Source: a virus. From it: a stretch of DNA of 64,000 nt. Below, piece by piece: positions 9,254-32,046 of this stretch. Position 1 is the first letter of the stretch, and each line of letters starts with the position of its first letter. The notes beneath the pieces were generated by a model, which made no database searches, was not told the origin of the DNA, and saw only the letters and a list, made by a program, of their open reading frames with translations. The stretch is taken from the IMG/VR virus record IMGVR_UViG_3300048591_000348, positions 15,920 to 79,919 of that record. One strand, written 5' to 3'. A program made the position numbers and the translations under genes.

Positions 9254-9628
9254 ATGGCTGATAGCAACCATACCATCGTTCAATCCATATCCGAATCTGT
9301 AATCAGGGCAGACGCCACGCTCGCGGCAATAAAACAACTGCCATTCGTCCGAGACGCGACGCGTGCCGAGCGCGCAGCCGGAATGCCGGGGCGCAAATTC
9401 TGGGCCGTCGCATCGACTGGGGACTACGCTGCCGATCGCCGTGCCGGTCAGCAGTTTGCTCGCGAGGCATTGGCATTCATGGTCGCTCACGACTTCCCGG
9501 CGCTGCTCGGATGGATCGTGCGGGACATGTGCGCCGAGGATGATGATCGTCACCTGGGCGCAGTCGAGTGCGGCTTCCTGTCCGCCATCGCCCGCCAGGC
9601 CATCGGCGGCGCGCACGCACTTGATTAA
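9254..9628 (+). CDS. hypothetical protein, similar to the C-terminal domain of 34793..35569
   Basis: GGAG SD; FWAV..TGDY..D...G...LLGWIVRDM...VECGF motif. Confidence 0.65.
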   Translation: MADSNHTIVQSISESVIRADATLAAIKQLPFVRDATRAERAAGMPGRKFWAVASTGDYAADRRAGQQFAREALAFMVAHDFPALLGWIVRDMCAEDDDRHLGAVECGFLSAIARQAIGGAHALD

Positions 9629-9655
9629 TATTTTGCGCCTCAATATATGGAGCGC

Positions 9656-9868
9656 ATGGCGAACCAGAACGCGAACAACAATCCTCGGGGGCCAGGCCGC
9701 CCGAGGATTGCGCCGGCAGATGAGTCGGCCCAAATCAACCTGAGACTCACAAAGACCCAGCTCGATTGGCTGTCAGACGAGTCTCGGCGGCAGGGGCAGT
9801 CGGGGCGGACGGCGGTCATTCGTCGCCTAATCGACGACGCGATGGCTACCTACGGCCGGAAGAGATAG
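9656..9868 (+). CDS. ribbon-helix-helix (CopG-like) regulator
   Basis: GPGRP...INLRLT..QLDWL...RTAVIRRLIDDAM. Confidence 0.7.
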   Translation: MANQNANNNPRGPGRPRIAPADESAQINLRLTKTQLDWLSDESRRQGQSGRTAVIRRLIDDAMATYGRKR

Positions 9869-9904
9869 ACAAAAAAGCGCAATTATCACGATTTTGTGAT
9901 CAAT

Positions 9905-9949
9905 GTTCTTTTGTTGTTCTGTTTTGGGGCTCATAAACTATGGTATAAT
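9905..9949 (+). promoter_or_regulatory. promoter with extended -10 and upstream alphaproteobacterial LexA box
   Basis: GTTC-TTTTGTT-GTTC at 9905-9919; TGGTATAAT at 9941-9949. Confidence 0.6.
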
Positions 9950-10106
9950 GATTCTCAAGACGCGACGATCGGGATGCCCAAGCGCTGGACGCAAGGACTT
10001 CTGACCGACGAGCGCAGGGAAACGGCTCGCATTGTTCCTGGGCACCTCCCTAATTGAGACCGATCCCTGTGACGTGGGGCTACCTACGGCACAGGGAGTG
10101 AGAGAC

Positions 10107-10388
10107 ATGGCACGACGCAAAGCTGTGCAGTCTGGCAACGCGGTGACGACGCAATCGGCATCGTGGAAAAGCCTTCTCGGGGCCGTCGCTTTCGGGCGCG
10201 GGTTCAAGGAGGTGCACGCCGGCCTGCCCTTCAATTCTGACGCCATCGAGTCGCGATGGCATTGGCACTACGAGCGCGGGCGCCTCTTCGGTGTGGTCTA
10301 CAAGGGCCAACTCAAGGAGGGGCGCACGGTTCTCCGGGCGGCAATCTACGCCGCTCAGATCGCCTACCGCGACAAGGTGTTCACCTAA
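10107..10388 (+). CDS. hypothetical protein
   Basis: AGGGAG SD; QWxYERGR-like motif (WHYERGRLFG). Confidence 0.7.
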   Translation: MARRKAVQSGNAVTTQSASWKSLLGAVAFGRGFKEVHAGLPFNSDAIESRWHWHYERGRLFGVVYKGQLKEGRTVLRAAIYAAQIAYRDKVFT

Positions 10389-10473
10389 TGCCGAGGCCCT
10401 TCGGGGCCTCACCTCACAGGGATCGGTTGACCATCGCCTTCTGCGTGAGGCTTCACGCTAGGAGGACTGGGAA

Positions 10474-10791
10474 ATGAACGTCATCGACGTAACGATCAAT
10501 GATCGTGAAATTCCGGCCGGCAAGGTCTTGATCGCCAAGAGCAAGCCCGAGGGCGAGCCTTTCGCCAGAGAGCACGAGCTGGACAGCAAGATCGGCTGGA
10601 AGAACTCGGATCTGGGGCGCCCTCGGCAAGTTCGGCTGGTAGGCCGGGTTGCTGGGTGGAACCTCGCCGGGTCGATGCTGCGGTGGGACAATGGCGCTTA
10701 CGGCGTCATCTGGGACATCGACGGATCGAGGCACGGTCGCTGGTACAAGAAGTTCGAGGAAGCGGTCGAGCACTTCAATCGCATCCCTTGA
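10474..10791 (+). CDS. hypothetical protein
   Basis: AGGAGG SD, 105 aa. Confidence 0.75.
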   Translation: MNVIDVTINDREIPAGKVLIAKSKPEGEPFAREHELDSKIGWKNSDLGRPRQVRLVGRVAGWNLAGSMLRWDNGAYGVIWDIDGSRHGRWYKKFEEAVEHFNRIP

Positions 10792-10880
10792 ACCTCCGAG
10801 GCCCATACGGGCCTCACCCCGAAGGCGATGAATATCCCATCATTCCATGAGGGCATCCTGCCCTTCGGAGGGAATGACAA

Positions 10881-11228
10881 ATGCAAACATTGTCTTTGAG
10901 GCTGACGCATTCCTACGTCGGGACATGGCAGCACCTGGACAAGTGGGAGGGTCTGGGCTCGATCGATGAGATCGGCTCAAGAGAACTCCCGCTGAACGAG
11001 GAACAGGAGAACGATCACTGCGAGCCGAAAGGCCGCGAAGTGTTCTGCCTCGTCACTTCGGAAGCCGAGGATGCGAAGATCATCTGCGCGCTTCACGACA
11101 CCTACACCCAATGGGGTTGCTCGCACGAATACGACTGCTGCGGCTGCCGGAGCTACACGGCTCAGGACGTCAAGCGGGTGACGGGCAATCTCTGGCGGGT
11201 CGAGGTCTGGTCCTCTCGGAACTACTAA
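10881..11228 (+). CDS. hypothetical Cys-rich protein
   Basis: GGAGG SD; CSHEYDCCGC motif. Confidence 0.75.
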   Translation: MQTLSLRLTHSYVGTWQHLDKWEGLGSIDEIGSRELPLNEEQENDHCEPKGREVFCLVTSEAEDAKIICALHDTYTQWGCSHEYDCCGCRSYTAQDVKRVTGNLWRVEVWSSRNY

Positions 11229-11316
11229 CCTCCAAGGCACCCGGCAACGGGTGTCCTCATGGGATGATGGGAAATTCCCCGAGACCTTCGCTGGCAGTGA
11301 GCCGACGCGGAGGAAG

Positions 11317-11526
11317 ATGATGACCAGGGACAAGGAATTGAACCTGATCTGGAAACACACGCACCCGGACTTTCGCGGGAAGATCGACGGCAAGCGATAC
11401 GTCCTATGCTGGATTGAAGGCAGCGGGACATGCAGCGTGCCACTCGAAAGCCTTCCCGAGAAAGAGCACCAATCAAAGTTGGGCTACGCTCAACGACGGG
11501 AGGCGCGGGGCGAGCGCGGATACTGA
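11317..11526 (+). CDS. hypothetical protein
   Basis: GGAGG SD; IWKHTHPDFRG motif. Confidence 0.7.
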   Translation: MMTRDKELNLIWKHTHPDFRGKIDGKRYVLCWIEGSGTCSVPLESLPEKEHQSKLGYAQRREARGERGY

Positions 11527-11616
11527 TTATGGGTTGCCCGGGAGACCGGGCTGCCTGCCAAGGTCTCGGGAAACTGTGCCTCCTGATGGGCGATCCTGCC
11601 CTACCGGGAGAGCGAC

Positions 11617-11730
11617 ATGGCCAAGTTTCACTTCATCGCCGTTCCGCTGATCAAGATCGAGCGCGGCCCCTACTGGGGACGCGGCAGCCCGGACGTTGTT
11701 GCCGTCCCTGCGAACAAACTGCAACCCTGA
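11617..11730 (+). CDS. small hypothetical protein (37 aa)
   Basis: GGGAG SD; MAKFHFIAVPLIKIERGPYW...; below the ORF-track cutoff. Confidence 0.5.
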   Translation: MAKFHFIAVPLIKIERGPYWGRGSPDVVAVPANKLQP

Positions 11731-11840
11731 GCCTACTGGCCCGCCCCGAGAAATCGGCAAGCGGGGCTGAGGTGGTAGAGACAGAGGCGCGGCGGCTAAA
11801 CGTCACCCGCAATGACGACTAGCACAGGGAGACAGATGAT

Positions 11841-12149
11841 ATGGCCGGCAAGCCCTCAATCCCCGCGGGCGTGCATCGTCGCATCCGGCAACTCCACTCT
11901 CGCGGCATGACGCAGAGCGCCATTGCCGAGGCCGTCGGATGCTCAAGATATACCGTGTGCAAGGCGATCAATCCGGATTTCGCGGAGCAAGAGCGGCAAC
12001 GTCACCGCCGCATGGGCCGCGATCGCTATGTCGCCCGGAAAGACGATCCCGACTATATCTCTTATCAGAGTGCCTGGAACACCACGCCAGAGCGGCTGCG
12101 CAAAGTGCGCGAGGGCATGCGGCGACTCCGGAAATCCAGACAGGCATGA
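11841..12149 (+). CDS. HTH DNA-binding protein
   Basis: GMTQSAIAEAVGCSRYTV. Confidence 0.7.
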   Translation: MAGKPSIPAGVHRRIRQLHSRGMTQSAIAEAVGCSRYTVCKAINPDFAEQERQRHRRMGRDRYVARKDDPDYISYQSAWNTTPERLRKVREGMRRLRKSRQA

Positions 12150-12290
12150 GCACGCCCATCAGGGCAATCCTCGCCTCCCAGCCGAAAGGCCGCGGGAGGC
12201 GAAGCGCGTAGAAGACCATGAAACTAACAGAGGCCGGTTGCTGGCTAGAGCGACCGGCCTCCTTGTGCGCGTCGAGACGGAGCACTCAGG

Positions 12291-12461
12291 ATGCACCCAT
12301 ATCTCTACACGCTGGAAGTATTCCGTAACGGAGAGTGGATCGTTGTCAAGAGCGGGCTTTCCGCAACTCTCGCTGCCTTTGGATCAGCACTAGCGATGCT
12401 CAAAGAGCCGGGAGAACTGTGGAGAGCTGTTAGAGAGGACGGCGACGTTTTCTACCCGTGA
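12291..12461 (+). CDS. small hypothetical protein (56 aa)
   Basis: GGAG SD; MHPYLYTLEVFRNGEW... Confidence 0.55.
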   Translation: MHPYLYTLEVFRNGEWIVVKSGLSATLAAFGSALAMLKEPGELWRAVREDGDVFYP

Positions 12462-12540
12462 CCAATGCGTGAGCTTGTAAGGAATGCTTACAGGTTCGTC
12501 CCGCGCGCCCTGCCAGCGACAACAGCAGGAGAAAGCGCCC

Positions 12541-12675
12541 ATGCCCGACATCACGATCAAACGGTATGACGGATGGTGGTATTGCCTCGTGAATGGCCAA
12601 CGCGAACGCTTTGGCTATTCGACGGTCGCAGGCGCCATAGATCGGTACTACGCGATCGTAGAAGGCTGGATCTGA
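12541..12675 (+). CDS. small hypothetical protein (44 aa)
   Basis: AGGAG SD; MPDITIKRYDGWWY... Confidence 0.55.
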   Translation: MPDITIKRYDGWWYCLVNGQRERFGYSTVAGAIDRYYAIVEGWI

Positions 12676-12874
12676 CCGGCTGGGCGAGGCTTTCGGGCCT
12701 CACCTCGCTCGCAGGGCGCGCGGGATTTTTTGCAAAGGCCGAAACCATTGCCATCCGGCTGTGGTCGCGGAGTAATTCTCCGCCTGAAGATGGCCACTTT
12801 AGATCGACACCGGCCCACCTCGGGCCTCGGTGCGGCAAACACCGAGAGGTGGGCCAGAGTCAAGACTGATCACA

Positions 12875-13948
12875 ATGCACACATCTAGCACACGATGGCG
12901 AATCTCGCCACTGGGGTGGATCGCGCTATCCCTCGGGATCGCGGCCGAATCCGCCTCAAACGCGCTCCGAGCCTACGGGCTTGGTGCGTTCCTCGATCGC
13001 TTCGCGGTACACATCCAGGGGCACACGGTCTCGCTTGCGGGGTCCGTCCTAGTGCTGGCCGCCATCGCGATCTCACTCGCCCAGGCCAGAGCGGCCTGGG
13101 TCGCGCTCTCCCCAGGGCGCCCCATCAGTCAGCGTATCGTAGCGGGCTTCGCAGCCGCACTACTCGTCTCGATCTCGATCACGGCCCTTGCTTCTCATGT
13201 TCTCGATGCGCAACGAGCCAAGGGCGGTAGAGAGACAGCGGCCAGTCAATCGTACAGTAGAGCGAAGGCTGCGCACGACAAAGTCGTCGCCGAAATGCAA
13301 TCGCTTGGCGAGACGCGTCCAGTATCCGTGATCCAGGCCGAGATTGCCTCGGCCCAGATCGACATGGTTGTGTGGCGTCGATCGGCCCAATGCAGTGACA
13401 TCAGTCGCGAGGACACAAAAAAACTCTGCGGGCCAATCCTCACGCTTTACAAGGAGCGTGGCGCCGCCGCACGCAAGCTCGAGCTTGAACCCGAAGTCGC
13501 GCATCTGCGGGAACAACTCTCAAGCATGACGCCGCCCGTCGAAGCCAAGACGGCTTCGGAGGAAGCGATGTCCATGTGGTGGGCGTGGATCATGGGACTC
13601 GGCGTGGTGTATCTCGCCACATTCGGATCCGTGATTTACGCCAACGAAGTAACAGTCACAGAGCGGGAGCTTCCAAACCTTCCGCCACCGCCCTCAGCAA
13701 AGATCGTGGAAGACGACAGCCCGCCATCCGGCGGCGAATGCCGTCCGAAGACGAGAGAGGAAGCACTCGCCGACCTGCGGCAGCTTCTGAAGGCGGGACA
13801 CAGCCCGCCGTCTCAGGAGTGGCTTAGGGCGCGCTGGCAGGTGGGCTCAAAAGGCACGGTCTCAAAATGGCTTCGCCTTTGGGAGGACACTGCTCAGATG
13901 CCGGGGAGCCGGATGGTCGAAGGGCGCTGCAAGACCGTAGTCGCGTAA
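12875..13948 (+). CDS. membrane protein with coiled coil and C-terminal HTH
   Basis: Three N-terminal hydrophobic helices, a fourth near the C-terminus, then SQEWLRARWQVGSKGTVSKWL. Confidence 0.7.
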   Translation: MHTSSTRWRISPLGWIALSLGIAAESASNALRAYGLGAFLDRFAVHIQGHTVSLAGSVLVLAAIAISLAQARAAWVALSPGRPISQRIVAGFAAALLVSISITALASHVLDAQRAKGGRETAASQSYSRAKAAHDKVVAEMQSLGETRPVSVIQAEIASAQIDMVVWRRSAQCSDISREDTKKLCGPILTLYKERGAAARKLELEPEVAHLREQLSSMTPPVEAKTASEEAMSMWWAWIMGLGVVYLATFGSVIYANEVTVTERELPNLPPPPSAKIVEDDSPPSGGECRPKTREEALADLRQLLKAGHSPPSQEWLRARWQVGSKGTVSKWLRLWEDTAQMPGSRMVEGRCKTVVA

Positions 13949-30807: not shown

Positions 30808-32046
30808 TCACGCCCCCCCGCTCAGCTTCGCGGCAAGGATCCGCTTGGTGCGTTCGATTTCTTCCTCCGGCTTGCCGTTGATGGCCGCCGCGCCCGCGCT
30901 GAGACGCGACGCGACCGACTGCCGATCCCGCGCTTCTCTGGCCGCCTGTGCCCGACGTTGGTTGACGTCGCCCATGATCGACCGGGCGAGAAAGTTGGCG
31001 ATCTTGGATGGCAGGACTTTTTCCGGGCGCTGCCCGTTCTCGATCTCAAGACCCCATTGCATTGCGTGCGCAACGCAGAAATCGCGAACCTCGGTCGCCG
31101 TGAGCCCAGAGTTGATCGTCTGCATTCGGATGCCCGAGACGTAGATCGCAAACGCCGCATGTCGGATCGTCTCGCCGTTGGCATAGACGCCGTGCCCGAT
31201 GTGGGCCTCCCCAGCGAGAGGGGGCGGGTAATTGGCAGGCGCTGGCCCGCCTTCGCTCGCGTCCGCGCTAGTATCAGTTCTCACAGTAGTTTCTTTACTA
31301 GTTACTGTGCCAACTGGGGATCTGACATCAGAAGTGACGTCACTTGGGGATGTGACGTCAGATGGAGATCTGACATCAGAACCCAAATTTGTGTCTTCAC
31401 TATCGTTCGGCCTACTAGATATAGTTTTGATGTCAGGCTGGCATCTGACGTCAGATCCCCATCTGACGTCAGATGGGTGCATGACGTCAGATGGGTGGGT
31501 GATGTCAGATAGGTGCATGACATCAGGATGGTGGATGATGTCAGATGGAGAGGTGACATTAAGCACGCGATTTCTGCGCGCCTGCGCAATGGGATGAGGT
31601 CTCAGCGGAGTAGTGCGCTGGGACATTATCCACTGCGTGACGATATCCTGTAGCTCGGCTTGTCTTTGCTTTCGCAGGGCGTAATGCGCGAGCGCCCTCC
31701 CTCCCCCTTCCGGGGCGCGCCTCGCTACGACGAGGTACCCCAACGCAACAAGTTCGGAGAGCGTGTTCCTGATGCCTTGGTCCGTGTACCCCTGGTCCGG
31801 GTAGCCGTCTATGTTGTAGCGCCGGAGGGCGGCGGCGATGGTTTTGTGCCCAGGATAAGCGGTGCCGGTTGACGAGTTTATGTGACCAATAACTTCGGCG
31901 AGAACACGCAAATGGCGCCGATCCAATCGCGGGTCACGCACCGCCTCCATGATTACCTCCTTCATTGTCAGGAGAAGGTTCTCTTTGCTCTCGTTCACAA
32001 AGTCGTCGAAGGTCGGCCCGCCATTGTGCCCAATCTGGTCGGTCAT
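30808..32046 (-). CDS. replication initiator with HTH and internal iterons
   Basis: N-terminal AYPGHKTIA...IRNTLSELVALGYL winged helix; central repeat block. Confidence 0.75.
   Translation of the reverse strand: MTDQIGHNGGPTFDDFVNESKENLLLTMKEVIMEAVRDPRLDRRHLRVLAEVIGHINSSTGTAYPGHKTIAAALRRYNIDGYPDQGYTDQGIRNTLSELVALGYLVVARRAPEGGGRALAHYALRKQRQAELQDIVTQWIMSQRTTPLRPHPIAQARRNRVLNVTSPSDIIHHPDVMHLSDITHPSDVMHPSDVRWGSDVRCQPDIKTISSRPNDSEDTNLGSDVRSPSDVTSPSDVTSDVRSPVGTVTSKETTVRTDTSADASEGGPAPANYPPPLAGEAHIGHGVYANGETIRHAAFAIYVSGIRMQTINSGLTATEVRDFCVAHAMQWGLEIENGQRPEKVLPSKIANFLARSIMGDVNQRRAQAAREARDRQSVASRLSAGAAAINGKPEEEIERTKRILAAKLSGGA
31321..31560. repeat. iteron-like repeats, putative origin
   Basis: About 12 TGAC(G/A)TCA / TGATGTCA-type cores, mostly with 18-bp period, in two blocks. 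Confidence 0.8.

What the first reader, a model, noticed from the sequence alone, without database searches (positions are those of the whole stretch)
10064..12540. Each 5' arm alternatively sequesters its own Shine-Dalgarno: a possible translate-only-when-fully-transcribed switch
Seen in sequence: TCCCTGTG 10064-71 pairs with CACAGGGA 10090-97. CCTTCTGCGTGA 10437-48 pairs with TCACGC-T-AGGAGG 10453-65. TCATTCC 10840-46 pairs with GGAATGA 10871-77, around an inner AGGGCA/TGCCCT stem. CCTTCGC 11285-91 pairs with GCGGAGG 11307-13. CTCCTG 11580-85 pairs with CGGGAG 11605-10. CCTGC 12509-13 pairs with GCAGG 12525-29. In all six cases the anti-SD strand lies within or overlaps the long-range 5' arm. 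Pairing with the post-stop 3' arm would therefore free the RBS. Inference: the gene's own 3' UTR activates its translation, the reverse of the repressive 5'-3' pairing in type I toxin mRNAs such as hok and aapA. This could delay or gate toxic host-takeover proteins.
Basis: partly seen in the sequence, partly recalled or inferred. Interest (0 to 1): 0.85.

Follow-up and report, generated by a model that had tools for sequence, protein, structure and literature searches.

The report
RNA stems gating phage gene translation
In a phage operon of tiny genes, a conserved long-range RNA stem closes each gene into its own loop. In about half of such loops the upstream strand first hides the ribosome-binding site and lets go only once the downstream strand is made, which would be a built-in translation delay, so far supported only by folding calculations.

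Summary
All six local pairings exist at the stated coordinates and lie inside the 5' arms. Five long-range stems (g1, g2, g3, g4, g8) are real; g5's is degenerate. Two related phage contigs carry the same chain (9 and 11 modules). Their arm sequences differ, changes in orthologues are compensatory, and G-U exceeds A-C 30:10, so this is a selected RNA structure.

Across 25 modules, leader-only folds mask the Shine-Dalgarno (SD) in 16, against 20% of 41 ordinary genes (p 5e-4). Twelve modules are masked when nascent and open when closed, against 4.6 expected if stem columns are permuted (P<2e-4). The long-range state is always more stable, and refolding barriers are low.

The rule is not universal. 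In the window g1, g4 and g5 behave as proposed. g8 is barely masked. g2 hands its SD to a CCUCC just after its stop codon. g3 goes the opposite way. Each local pairing alone is weak evidence.

No RNA data exist, and nothing suggests the proteins are toxic. The stems are also the right size for RNase III.

Verdict: observation partly confirmed, interpretation partly supported. It is a new variant of known 5'-3' RNA switches. Earlier notes of this scan describe single or double gene-bracketing stems in unrelated phages.

The parts
9941..9949 (+). extended -10 like TGGTATAAT, presumed promoter of the operon
   Evidence: sequence; L050 has TGTGCTATAAT in the same position before its chain; not tested further
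10058..10081 (+). g1 5' arm; its bases 10064-10071 also pair locally with 10090-10097 next to the SD (GGAG 10095-10098)
10107..10388 (+). g1, 93 aa, no family; orthologue in L050 (c2, 59% identity)
10393..10410 (+). post-stop UUCG-loop hairpin of g1, overlapping the start of the 3' arm
10405..10428 (+). g1 3' arm (20 Watson-Crick + 3 G-U of 24)
10432..10453 (+). g2 5' arm; 10437-10448 pairs locally with 10453-10465, covering the SD AGGAGG 10460-10465
10474..10791 (+). g2, 105 aa, no family
10793..10797 (+). CCUCC directly after the g2 stop codon; predicted partner of the g2 SD in the closed form
10798..10815 (+). post-stop hairpin of g2
10809..10830 (+). g2 3' arm
10830..10858 (+). g3 5' arm (29 nt); inner hairpin AGGGCA/UGCCCU 10851-10865; SD GGAGG 10867-10871
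10881..11228 (+). g3, 115 aa, phrog_20892, Cys-rich, function unknown
11229..11233 (+). CCUCC directly after the g3 stop codon; pairs with the g3 SD in the CDS-masked construct (probability 1.00) and in the full-length ensemble (SD to 3' UTR 0.77), though not in the single full-length minimum-energy structure
11238..11253 (+). post-stop GCAA-loop hairpin of g3
11249..11277 (+). g3 3' arm (25 Watson-Crick + 3 G-U of 29)
11278..11298 (+). g4 5' arm; 11285-11291 pairs locally with 11307-11313 (SD GGAGG 11309-11313)
11320..11526 (+). g4, 68 aa (alternative ATG at 11317); orthologue b8 in L001 (55%)
11536..11551 (+). post-stop GAGA-loop hairpin of g4
11550..11570 (+). g4 3' arm
11573..11603 (+). 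g5 5' arm remnant (homologous to the b7 arm of L001); 11580-11585 pairs locally with the SD region 11605-11610
11617..11730 (+). g5, 37 aa, truncated relative to its 104-aa orthologue b7
11762..11793 (+). weak, irregular 3' partner of the g5 arm
11841..12149 (+). g6, 102-aa HTH protein, no bracket
12291..12461 (+). g7, 56 aa, no bracket
12498..12519 (+). g8 5' arm; 12509-12513 can pair with 12525-12529 (SD AGGAG 12527-12531)
12541..12675 (+). g8, 44 aa
12686..12701 (+). post-stop hairpin of g8
12705..12726 (+). g8 3' arm, run straight into a U-run (12726-12731) that ends the operon

Best explanation
Window 9.94-12.73 kb is one + strand operon of eight small genes in a complete 79.9-kb phage genome with direct terminal repeats.

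Shown (sequence, conservation, compensatory change): the mRNA is divided into modules. In each, a 5' arm ends 13-26 nt before the start codon. It pairs over 137-411 nt with a 3' arm that starts 8-31 nt after the stop codon, behind a tetraloop hairpin. Neighbouring stems abut within 0-5 nt.

Predicted by folding: the 5' arm has a second, local partner, the SD-containing leader. While the gene is being transcribed the 3' arm does not yet exist, so the local hairpin forms and masks the SD. This is predicted for g1, g2, g4 and g5 here, and for 16 of 25 modules overall.

Inferred from energies: once the 3' arm emerges, it displaces the SD strand by branch migration, because the long-range stem is 8-33 kcal/mol more stable and the barrier is only 4-16 kcal/mol.

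Outcome: in about half of the modules (g1, g4, g5 here) this leaves the SD open, so initiation waits until the cistron is complete. In the others the SD passes to a pyrimidine tract just after the stop codon (g2, g3) or is never well masked (g8). The modules probably differ in timing and level of translation.

A further inference: the 19-31-bp stems are the right size for host RNase III. It may cut the operon into loop-closed single-gene mRNAs. This would be compatible with the switch.
For: The structure is real:
- Five stems in the window, nine in L001 and eleven in L050, with regular geometry.
- Orthologous genes carry different arm sequences. g3 against c6 has 6 compensatory pairs among 9 varying positions. 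c9 against the L094 unit has 4 compensatory and 2 wobble changes, with none lost.
- G-U against A-C in the stems is 30:10 (p 0.002), and 10:0 in the window.

The SD is masked in the nascent form:
- Leader-only SD-unpaired probability averages 0.19. It is 0.34 with shuffled arms, 0.38 with the 3' arm put in its place and 0.45 with no arm (Fisher 1.4e-5, Wilcoxon 6e-4).
- 64% of modules are masked against 20% of 41 non-array genes of the same contigs (odds ratio 7.3, p 5e-4).

The 3' arm relieves the masking:
- SD-to-5'-arm pairing falls from 0.66 to 0.05.
- Twelve modules are masked when nascent and open when closed, against 4.6 +/- 1.5 when stem columns are permuted (P<2e-4). The mean gain is +0.16 against -0.03 (p 1.6e-4).

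Feasibility: the energy difference has median -13.5 and the barrier median 6 kcal/mol.

Precedents from papers:
- Anti-SD-like sequences hundreds of nucleotides away pair with the ribosome-binding site in vivo, and neighbouring sequence can neutralise them (PMC12697547).
- RNase III cuts long-range duplexes of 10-36 bp up to 505 nt apart (PMC11780869).
Against: - Only 12 of 25 modules switch as proposed. Five stay masked, four go the other way (g3 among them) and four are never masked.
- Closed-form SD accessibility is modest (0.35) and no higher than with permuted stems (0.31, p 0.25).
- Four of the 12 switching modules (b2, b6, b9, c10) share one leader family and are not independent.
- Single-gene tests in the window are weak.
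- Strict anti-SD 5-mers are about as frequent in 3' arms (1.5 per 100 nt) as in 5' arms (1.9).
- All of this is equilibrium folding without ribosomes, proteins or RNases.
- The local hairpin could merely keep the 5' arm from mispairing until its partner is made.
- No transcript data exist.
Confidence: 0.4

Rival explanations
1. Punctuation only. The stems exist to be cut by host RNase III, or to insulate and stabilise each cistron as a portable, self-contained folding domain. The local 5' arm hairpins are transient folding guides or by-products. They have no regulatory effect on translation.
For: - Stem length of 19-31 bp matches mapped RNase III substrates (PMC11780869).
- Stems abut within 0-5 nt, like processing stalks.
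- A stable tetraloop hairpin sits at each 3' end.
- Gene order differs between phages while each gene keeps a stem of its own.
- Mismatches cluster 4-14 bp from the inner end and the outer 9-15 bp are perfect, which suggests a recognised shape.
- Closed-form SD accessibility equals that of permuted stems.
Against: - SD masking in leaders is far commoner than in ordinary genes of the same phages and than with shuffled or strand-swapped arms. A pure by-product would not predict this.
- The phage encodes no RNase III or dsRNA-binding domain.
- Cleavage could not be tested.
- This rival and the switch could both be true.
Confidence: 0.3
2. Closed means silent. As in icaR or full-length hok mRNA, the 5'-3' panhandle is the repressed, nuclease-resistant form. 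The SD moves from the 5' arm to a pyrimidine tract just after the stop codon. Translation then needs processing, or a terminating ribosome that melts that helix.
For: - In full-length folds the SD pairs with the 3' UTR in most modules, and with positions +1 to +7 after the stop codon in 10 of 25.
- Anti-SD 5-mers are 12 times denser in the 12 nt after stop codons than in coding sequence.
- g2 and g3 carry CCUCC right after the stop codon.
- Four modules are open when nascent and masked when closed.
Against: - SD pairing with the post-stop tract is no better than with composition-matched shuffles of those 12 nt (Fisher 0.09, Wilcoxon 0.29).
- Only 9 of 25 modules are masked in the closed form.
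- g1, g4 and g8 have no such tract.
Confidence: 0.12
3. A DNA-level feature or chance. The inverted repeats would be cassette boundaries for recombination (attC-like or MITE-like), and the anti-SD matches would be coincidence in G+C-rich DNA.
For: - Modules are shuffled in order between phages.
- The individual local pairings are short.
Against: - Every module has its own arm sequence and there is no shared core. GTTRRRY occurs at 0 of 25 boundaries and RYYYAAC at 1 of 25.
- Adjacent arms are not complementary (-14 against -38 kcal/mol).
- The G-U over A-C bias points to + strand RNA.
- Arms always lie outside coding sequence at fixed distances from the SD and the stop codon.
- Pooled statistics reject chance.
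Confidence: 0.03

Closest known systems
Anti-antisense activation of rpoS by DsrA/RprA (PMC2831331)
   Same: An upstream leader strand masks the SD. A second RNA strand pairs with that masking strand and frees the ribosome site. The activating duplex is itself an RNase III substrate.
   Different: There the activator is a trans-acting, Hfq-dependent sRNA that responds to stress. Here it would be the gene's own 3' UTR, present in every complete transcript, and the design repeats gene after gene.
hok/Sok and aapA1/IsoA1 type I toxin mRNAs (PMC5416894, PMC9841398, PMC3851714)
   Same: There is a 5'-3' long-distance interaction within one mRNA. Metastable 5' hairpins form during transcription, and the SD is controlled by alternative pairings.
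   Different: In those mRNAs 5'-3' pairing locks the silent form and 3' trimming activates it. They encode short membrane toxins and have an antisense RNA. Here closure tends to open the SD, the proteins have no membrane-helix-like segment, and no antisense promoter was seen.
icaR 5'-3' UTR pairing in Staphylococcus aureus (PMC3868564)
   Same: A pyrimidine anti-SD motif in the 3' UTR can pair with the gene's own SD. RNase III acts on the duplex.
   Different: In icaR the pairing is purely repressive, it is a single gene, and no 5' arm competes. Here only about a third of modules carry a post-stop anti-SD, and its pairing is not above composition-matched controls.
Long-range RNase III substrates: rrn 16S/23S processing stalks and B. 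subtilis mRNAs (PMC11780869, PMC8708148)
   Same: Duplexes of about 20-30 bp form between strands hundreds of nucleotides apart and enclose a functional RNA.
   Different: Those are isolated sites or rRNA. They are not a head-to-tail chain that encloses each small protein gene, and they have no built-in anti-SD alternative.
B. subtilis hbs mRNA 5'/3'-UTR interaction (PMC5737220)
   Same: A 14-bp pairing of 5' and 3' UTRs in a small, highly structured mRNA links its stability to translation initiation.
   Different: It modulates RNase Y access rather than SD masking, and it is a single host gene.
Phage T7 early-region RNase III sites and the MS2 maturation gene (from my own knowledge, not checked here)
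   Same: In T7, RNase III stems punctuate a polycistronic early RNA. In MS2, translation depends on the folding state of the nascent RNA.
   Different: T7 sites are local hairpins between genes. In MS2 the nascent form is the open one, the opposite polarity to most modules here.

Membership tests
Type I toxin mRNA with 5'-3' long-distance interaction (hok, aapA1) | 5' end of the mRNA pairs with its 3' end | tested here: met
   21-29-bp stems enclose g1, g2, g3, g4 and g8
Type I toxin mRNA with 5'-3' long-distance interaction (hok, aapA1) | 5'-3' pairing holds the SD masked; activation needs 3' processing | tested here: not met
   Closure raises predicted SD accessibility on average (0.19 to 0.35). 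Twelve of 25 modules go from masked to open and only 4 go the other way. This is in silico only.
Type I toxin mRNA with 5'-3' long-distance interaction (hok, aapA1) | Short hydrophobic membrane toxin | tested here: not met
   The highest 19-residue Kyte-Doolittle mean is 0.46-1.49 for g1-g8, below 1.6. Two first-position peptides in the relatives (b1, c1) are hydrophobic.
Type I toxin mRNA with 5'-3' long-distance interaction (hok, aapA1) | Overlapping antisense RNA antitoxin | tested here: inconclusive
   No sigma-70-like promoter on either strand of 9500-13200, but the host's promoter type is unknown and no RNA data exist.
Anti-antisense translational activation (DsrA-rpoS type) | Upstream leader strand masks the SD | tested here: met
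   Predicted in g1, g2, g4 and g5 and in 16 of 25 modules, well above controls
Anti-antisense translational activation (DsrA-rpoS type) | Activator RNA pairs with the masking strand and opens the SD | tested here: inconclusive
   The 3' arm fully competes for the masking strand (0.66 to 0.05). The SD ends up open in only about half of the modules.
Anti-antisense translational activation (DsrA-rpoS type) | Trans-acting, regulated sRNA | tested here: not met
   The competing strand is the gene's own 3' UTR, in cis
RNase III long-range processing stem | Near-continuous duplex of about two helical turns | tested here: met
   19-31 bp with 0-3 mismatches. Across the 25 stems there are 496 Watson-Crick pairs, 30 G-U pairs and 42 mismatches.
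RNase III long-range processing stem | Paired cuts leaving 2-nt 3' overhangs, dependent on rnc | not testable with these tools
   No RNA run holds the sequence
icaR-type 3' UTR anti-SD repression | 3' UTR motif complementary to the gene's own SD, pairing with it | tested here: inconclusive
   CCUCC or CCUUC starts within 3 nt of the stop codon in 8 of 25 modules (g2 and g3 here), a 12-fold enrichment over coding sequence. The pairing is not better than with shuffled post-stop 12-mers.
Integron cassette / attC array | Shared inverse core sites (RYYYAAC ... GTTRRRY) and a local imperfect palindrome between cassettes | tested here: not met
   GTTRRRY at 0 of 25 boundaries and RYYYAAC at 1 of 25. 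Adjacent arms are not complementary.
Intrinsic terminator | G+C-rich hairpin followed by a U-run | tested here: not met
   The post-stop hairpins have no U-run. Only the last 3' arm (12705-12726) is followed by one.
Any Rfam family | Match to a curated covariance model | tested here: not met
   No match at E<=1 in 9500-13200

The most novel reading that the evidence does not exclude
A previously undescribed kind of phage expression cassette. Each accessory gene carries its own cis-acting activator: its 3' UTR strips an anti-SD strand off the ribosome site, so only complete cistrons are translated. The same stems chain into a stalk that insulates each gene's folding, and perhaps marks it for RNase III. 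Cassettes could then be shuffled between phages and still work.
Probability: 0.3. Interest if true: 0.85.

Novelty: new variant of a known kind. Interest (0 to 1): 0.7.

Why it matters
Bacterial translation is usually pictured as starting on the nascent RNA, and 3' UTRs as mostly passive. Here a conserved run of up to eleven consecutive genes each has its 5' and 3' flanks paired. A statistically supported handover of the ribosome-site mask from a local to a distal partner adds a further layer.

If real, this would be a natural cis version of sRNA-type activation. It would also be a natural example of the insulated expression cassette that synthetic biology builds by hand.

It makes concrete questions testable:
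- Can a bacterial 3' UTR switch its own gene on?
- How do long-range mRNA contacts, now known to be common in vivo, shape gene order and exchange in phages?
- Does RNase III read such chains?

The modules are small (250-450 nt) and self-contained, so reporter and probing tests are simple.

Tried and rejected
- RNA evidence: no RNA holder was listed for the stretch.
DNA around the closest g3 homologues (P0002-P0007, 60-72% identity) could not be fetched.
- Single-sequence scans with g1 and g2, and an alignment of g1 with its orthologue, found no viral loci.
- The g4 alignment found only 52%-identical loci of 50% G+C without brackets.
- A scan for the shared leader motif found nothing.
- The phage collection held no similar DNA.
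- Most distant g3 homologues (85 loci) lack brackets. The architecture is therefore confined to one lineage and is not tied to the gene.
- RNAduplex on long flanks over-fits and was dropped.
- SD pairing with the post-stop tract is not above composition-matched shuffles.
- Dual-constraint idea. Pyrimidines of the 5' arm that mismatch the 3' arm are more often paired in the local hairpin (odds ratio 4.3). The excess vanishes once position in the arm is controlled (p 0.28).
- The phage has no gene for RNase III or a dsRNA-binding domain.
- The fold of g3 (pLDDT 81) has no convincing match to a solved structure.
- No Rfam match.
- No second array elsewhere in the 79.9-kb genome.
Full report
CONTEXT. 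The window is bases 15920-79919 of a complete 79.9-kb virus record with direct terminal repeats. Between an extended -10-like TGGTATAAT (9941-9949) and a U-run (12726-12731) lie eight small + strand genes:
- g1 10107-10388
- g2 10474-10791
- g3 10881-11228
- g4 11320-11526
- g5 11617-11730
- g6 11841-12149
- g7 12291-12461
- g8 12541-12675.

Only g3 (phrog_20892, function unknown) and g6 (helix-turn-helix) match any family. A good model of g3 (pLDDT 81) matches no solved fold. None of the eight proteins has a membrane-helix-like segment. No Rfam family matches.

THE OBSERVATION. Three are perfect and three need a G-U pair or a 1x1 loop. Each lies inside the 5' arm of a gene-enclosing inverted repeat.

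The long-range repeats are the stronger feature. Arms of 21-29 nt with 0-2 mismatches enclose g1, g2, g3, g4 and g8. g5 has only an irregular remnant. It is also truncated, at 37 aa against 104 aa in its orthologue. g6 and g7 have no bracket.

In leader-only folds five of the six claimed hairpins appear in the minimum-energy structure; g3's does not. The SD is strongly masked only in g1, g2, g4 and g5. Taken singly against shuffled arms, only g2 and g4 reach p<0.05. Only the g1 and g2 leaders fold clearly better than shuffles (z -3.2 and -2.7).

THE STRUCTURE IS CONSERVED AND IS RNA. Most distant homologues of g3 in other phages have no bracket. The closest relatives carry the same architecture:
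- L001 (g3 homologue 64-67% identical) has nine brackets.
- L050 (71%) has eleven, ten of them in an almost unbroken chain.
- L066 repeats three of L001's. A more distant relative, L094, keeps at least one, probably two.

Across 25 modules the geometry is regular:
- arms of 19-31 nt;
- 13-26 nt from the 5' arm to the start codon;
- 8-31 nt from the stop codon to the 3' arm, behind a tetraloop hairpin;
- loops of 137-411 nt.

Neighbouring stems abut within -1 to 5 nt.

Orthologous genes have different arms. g3 against c6 shows 6 compensatory pairs among 9 varying positions. c9 against the L094 unit shows 4 compensatory and 2 wobble changes with none lost. g1/c2, g4/b8 and g3/b6 share almost no arm sequence yet all pair. 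Gene order also differs between phages.

G-U pairs outnumber A-C 30:10 overall (p 0.002) and 10:0 in the window. This marks the + strand RNA as the folding species.

attC-type cassette boundaries are excluded. No shared core sites occur, and adjacent arms are not complementary. No other array exists in the genome.

TESTING THE SWITCH. Three questions were asked of the 25 modules.

(1) Does the 5' arm mask the SD before the 3' arm exists? Leader-only SD-unpaired probability averages 0.19, and 16 of 25 modules are at or below 0.2. The controls give 0.34 with the arm shuffled, 0.38 with the 3' arm sequence in its place, 0.30 with other modules' arms and 0.45 with no arm (Fisher 1.4e-5, Wilcoxon 6e-4). 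Forty-one ordinary SD-bearing genes of the same three contigs average 0.43, and only 20% are masked (odds ratio 7.3, p 5e-4).

(2) Does the 3' arm remove the mask? With the whole coding sequence present, adding the 3' arm drops SD-to-5'-arm pairing from 0.66 to 0.05. In all 25 modules the long-range state beats the two-local-hairpin state (median -13.5 kcal/mol). The estimated refolding barrier is 4-16 kcal/mol, median 6, as expected for strand displacement from a toehold.

(3) Is the SD then free? Only partly. Mean accessibility rises to 0.33-0.35. The modules fall into four classes:
- 12 masked when nascent, open when closed;
- 5 masked in both states;
- 4 open when nascent, masked when closed;
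- 4 open in both.

A null that permutes the base-pair columns of each stem keeps the stem but scrambles its sequence. It gives 4.6 +/- 1.5 masked-then-open modules (P<2e-4) and a mean gain of -0.03 against +0.16 observed (p 1.6e-4). If the four modules that share one leader family are counted once, my own estimate is that the excess remains (9 of 22 against about 4). I did not rerun the test.

In this window g1 (0.19 to 0.75), g4 (0.00 to 0.55) and g5 (0.02 to 0.41) follow the model. g8 is only half masked to begin with (0.35 to 0.93). g2 stays masked (0.01 to 0.17). g3 goes the wrong way (0.39 to 0.00).

WHY g2 AND g3 DIFFER. In full-length folds the released SD often pairs with the 3' UTR. 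In the minimum-energy structures of 10 of 25 modules the partner is the first seven nucleotides after the stop codon. g2 and g3 have CCUCC there (10793-97, 11229-33). For g3 this pairing shows in the CDS-masked construct and the full-length ensemble, not in its single minimum-energy structure.

Strict anti-SD 5-mers per 100 nt are 0.41 in coding sequence, 1.9 in 5' arms, 1.5 in 3' arms and 5.0 in the 12 nt after stop codons. A recent preprint reports that such sequences are normally depleted from genes, because they pair with the ribosome site over hundreds of nucleotides and cut expression (PMC12697547). Their concentration here therefore looks deliberate.

Even so, pairing of the SD with the post-stop tract is no better than with composition-matched shuffles. 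A closed-means-silent reading stays a minority rival.

WHAT IT MOST LIKELY IS. The chain of gene-enclosing stems is a selected feature of the operon's RNA. The 5' arm's second partner, the SD leader, is enriched well beyond controls and gives way once the 3' arm exists. It amounts to a cis version of the anti-antisense activation known for DsrA and rpoS (PMC2831331), and it has the opposite polarity to hok and aapA1 (PMC5416894, PMC9841398).

It is not shown that translation follows these folds. The local hairpin may chiefly protect the 5' arm from mispairing until its partner is made.

The stems also fit RNase III substrates mapped in vivo: 10-36 bp, with cuts up to 505 nt apart (PMC11780869). 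The phage has no RNase III of its own. Processing and switching could coexist.

The suggestion that toxic proteins are being gated has no support.

NOVELTY. I found no paper describing a chain of protein genes each enclosed by its own long-range stem, or a 3' UTR that activates its own gene by removing an anti-SD strand. Single 5'-3' UTR pairings are known for icaR (PMC3868564) and hbs (PMC5737220).

Earlier notes of this scan (AI notes, not checked by me) describe one or two gene-bracketing stems in unrelated phages. One was read as freeing the ribosome site, and one concerns catalogued repeats of phage T5. The general phenomenon may therefore be wider than this lineage.

LIMITS. All functional statements rest on equilibrium folding of naked RNA. 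The modules come from only three or four related contigs, with some paralogous leaders. The host is unknown.

Noticed in passing
window 10793-10797 and 11229-11233; also L001 and L050 modules b1, b3, c2, c3, c4, c6: A pyrimidine anti-SD-like tract (CCUCC, CCUUC, UCUCC) starts within 3 nt after the stop codon in 8 of 25 modules. This is 12 times the density in coding sequence. A terminating ribosome would cover it.
   Followed up: partly
all 25 stems (window 10058-12726; L001 199-4707; L050 3418-7931): Stem mismatches are not random. 41 of 42 lie 4-16 bp from the inner end, 30 of 42 are pyrimidine-pyrimidine (C-C 13, U-U 9), and the outer 9-15 bp are perfect. This common shape in unrelated sequences is unexplained. 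It might be a protein or RNase III recognition feature.
   Followed up: partly
window 12705-12731: The 3' arm of g8 runs straight into UUUUUU, and the local hairpin there is weak. The 22-bp long-range stem, with a 185-nt loop, might itself serve as the terminator hairpin of the operon.
   Followed up: no
window 11617-11840: g5 is cut to 37 aa by a stop codon, whereas its orthologue in L001 has 104 aa. Only the first 18 residues align, and the module's 3' arm has decayed. g6 and g7 downstream have no brackets.
   Followed up: partly
L001 473-520, 2956-3003, 4415-4456; L050 6514-6558 and 7266-7310: Five modules share one leader family (CGUGC[A/C]GC..CAACGAUGGAG) in front of unrelated genes. In L050 a second copy of the 5' arm lies downstream of c10's 3' arm, so that arm has two possible partners.
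   Followed up: no
L001 247-420 and L050 3458-3544: The first module of each related chain encodes a short hydrophobic peptide (57 aa and 28 aa). The window's first module (g1) does not.
   Followed up: no
window 31335-31471: A cluster of near-perfect 28-30-nt repeats built on TGACGTCAGATG, in both orientations. It looks like an operator or origin-type array and is unrelated to this finding.
   Followed up: no
L026 1553-3555, L030/L043 1010-2977, L078 1903-5293, L025, L027, L028: Other phages with g3 homologues punctuate their small-gene regions differently. They use one repeated 15-28-nt palindrome (GGGACACGUGUCCC, AACUAGGAC..GUCCUAGUU or UUGGGACA..UGUCCCAA) between genes.
   Followed up: no
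L001 (contig CAZZDD010000020.1): The contig is filed under a Candidatus Peribacteria genome bin. It has 58% G+C and shares phage genes with the window, including a 574-aa protein next to the small terminase subunit at 63% identity. It is probably a phage or prophage contig placed in the wrong bin.
   Followed up: no
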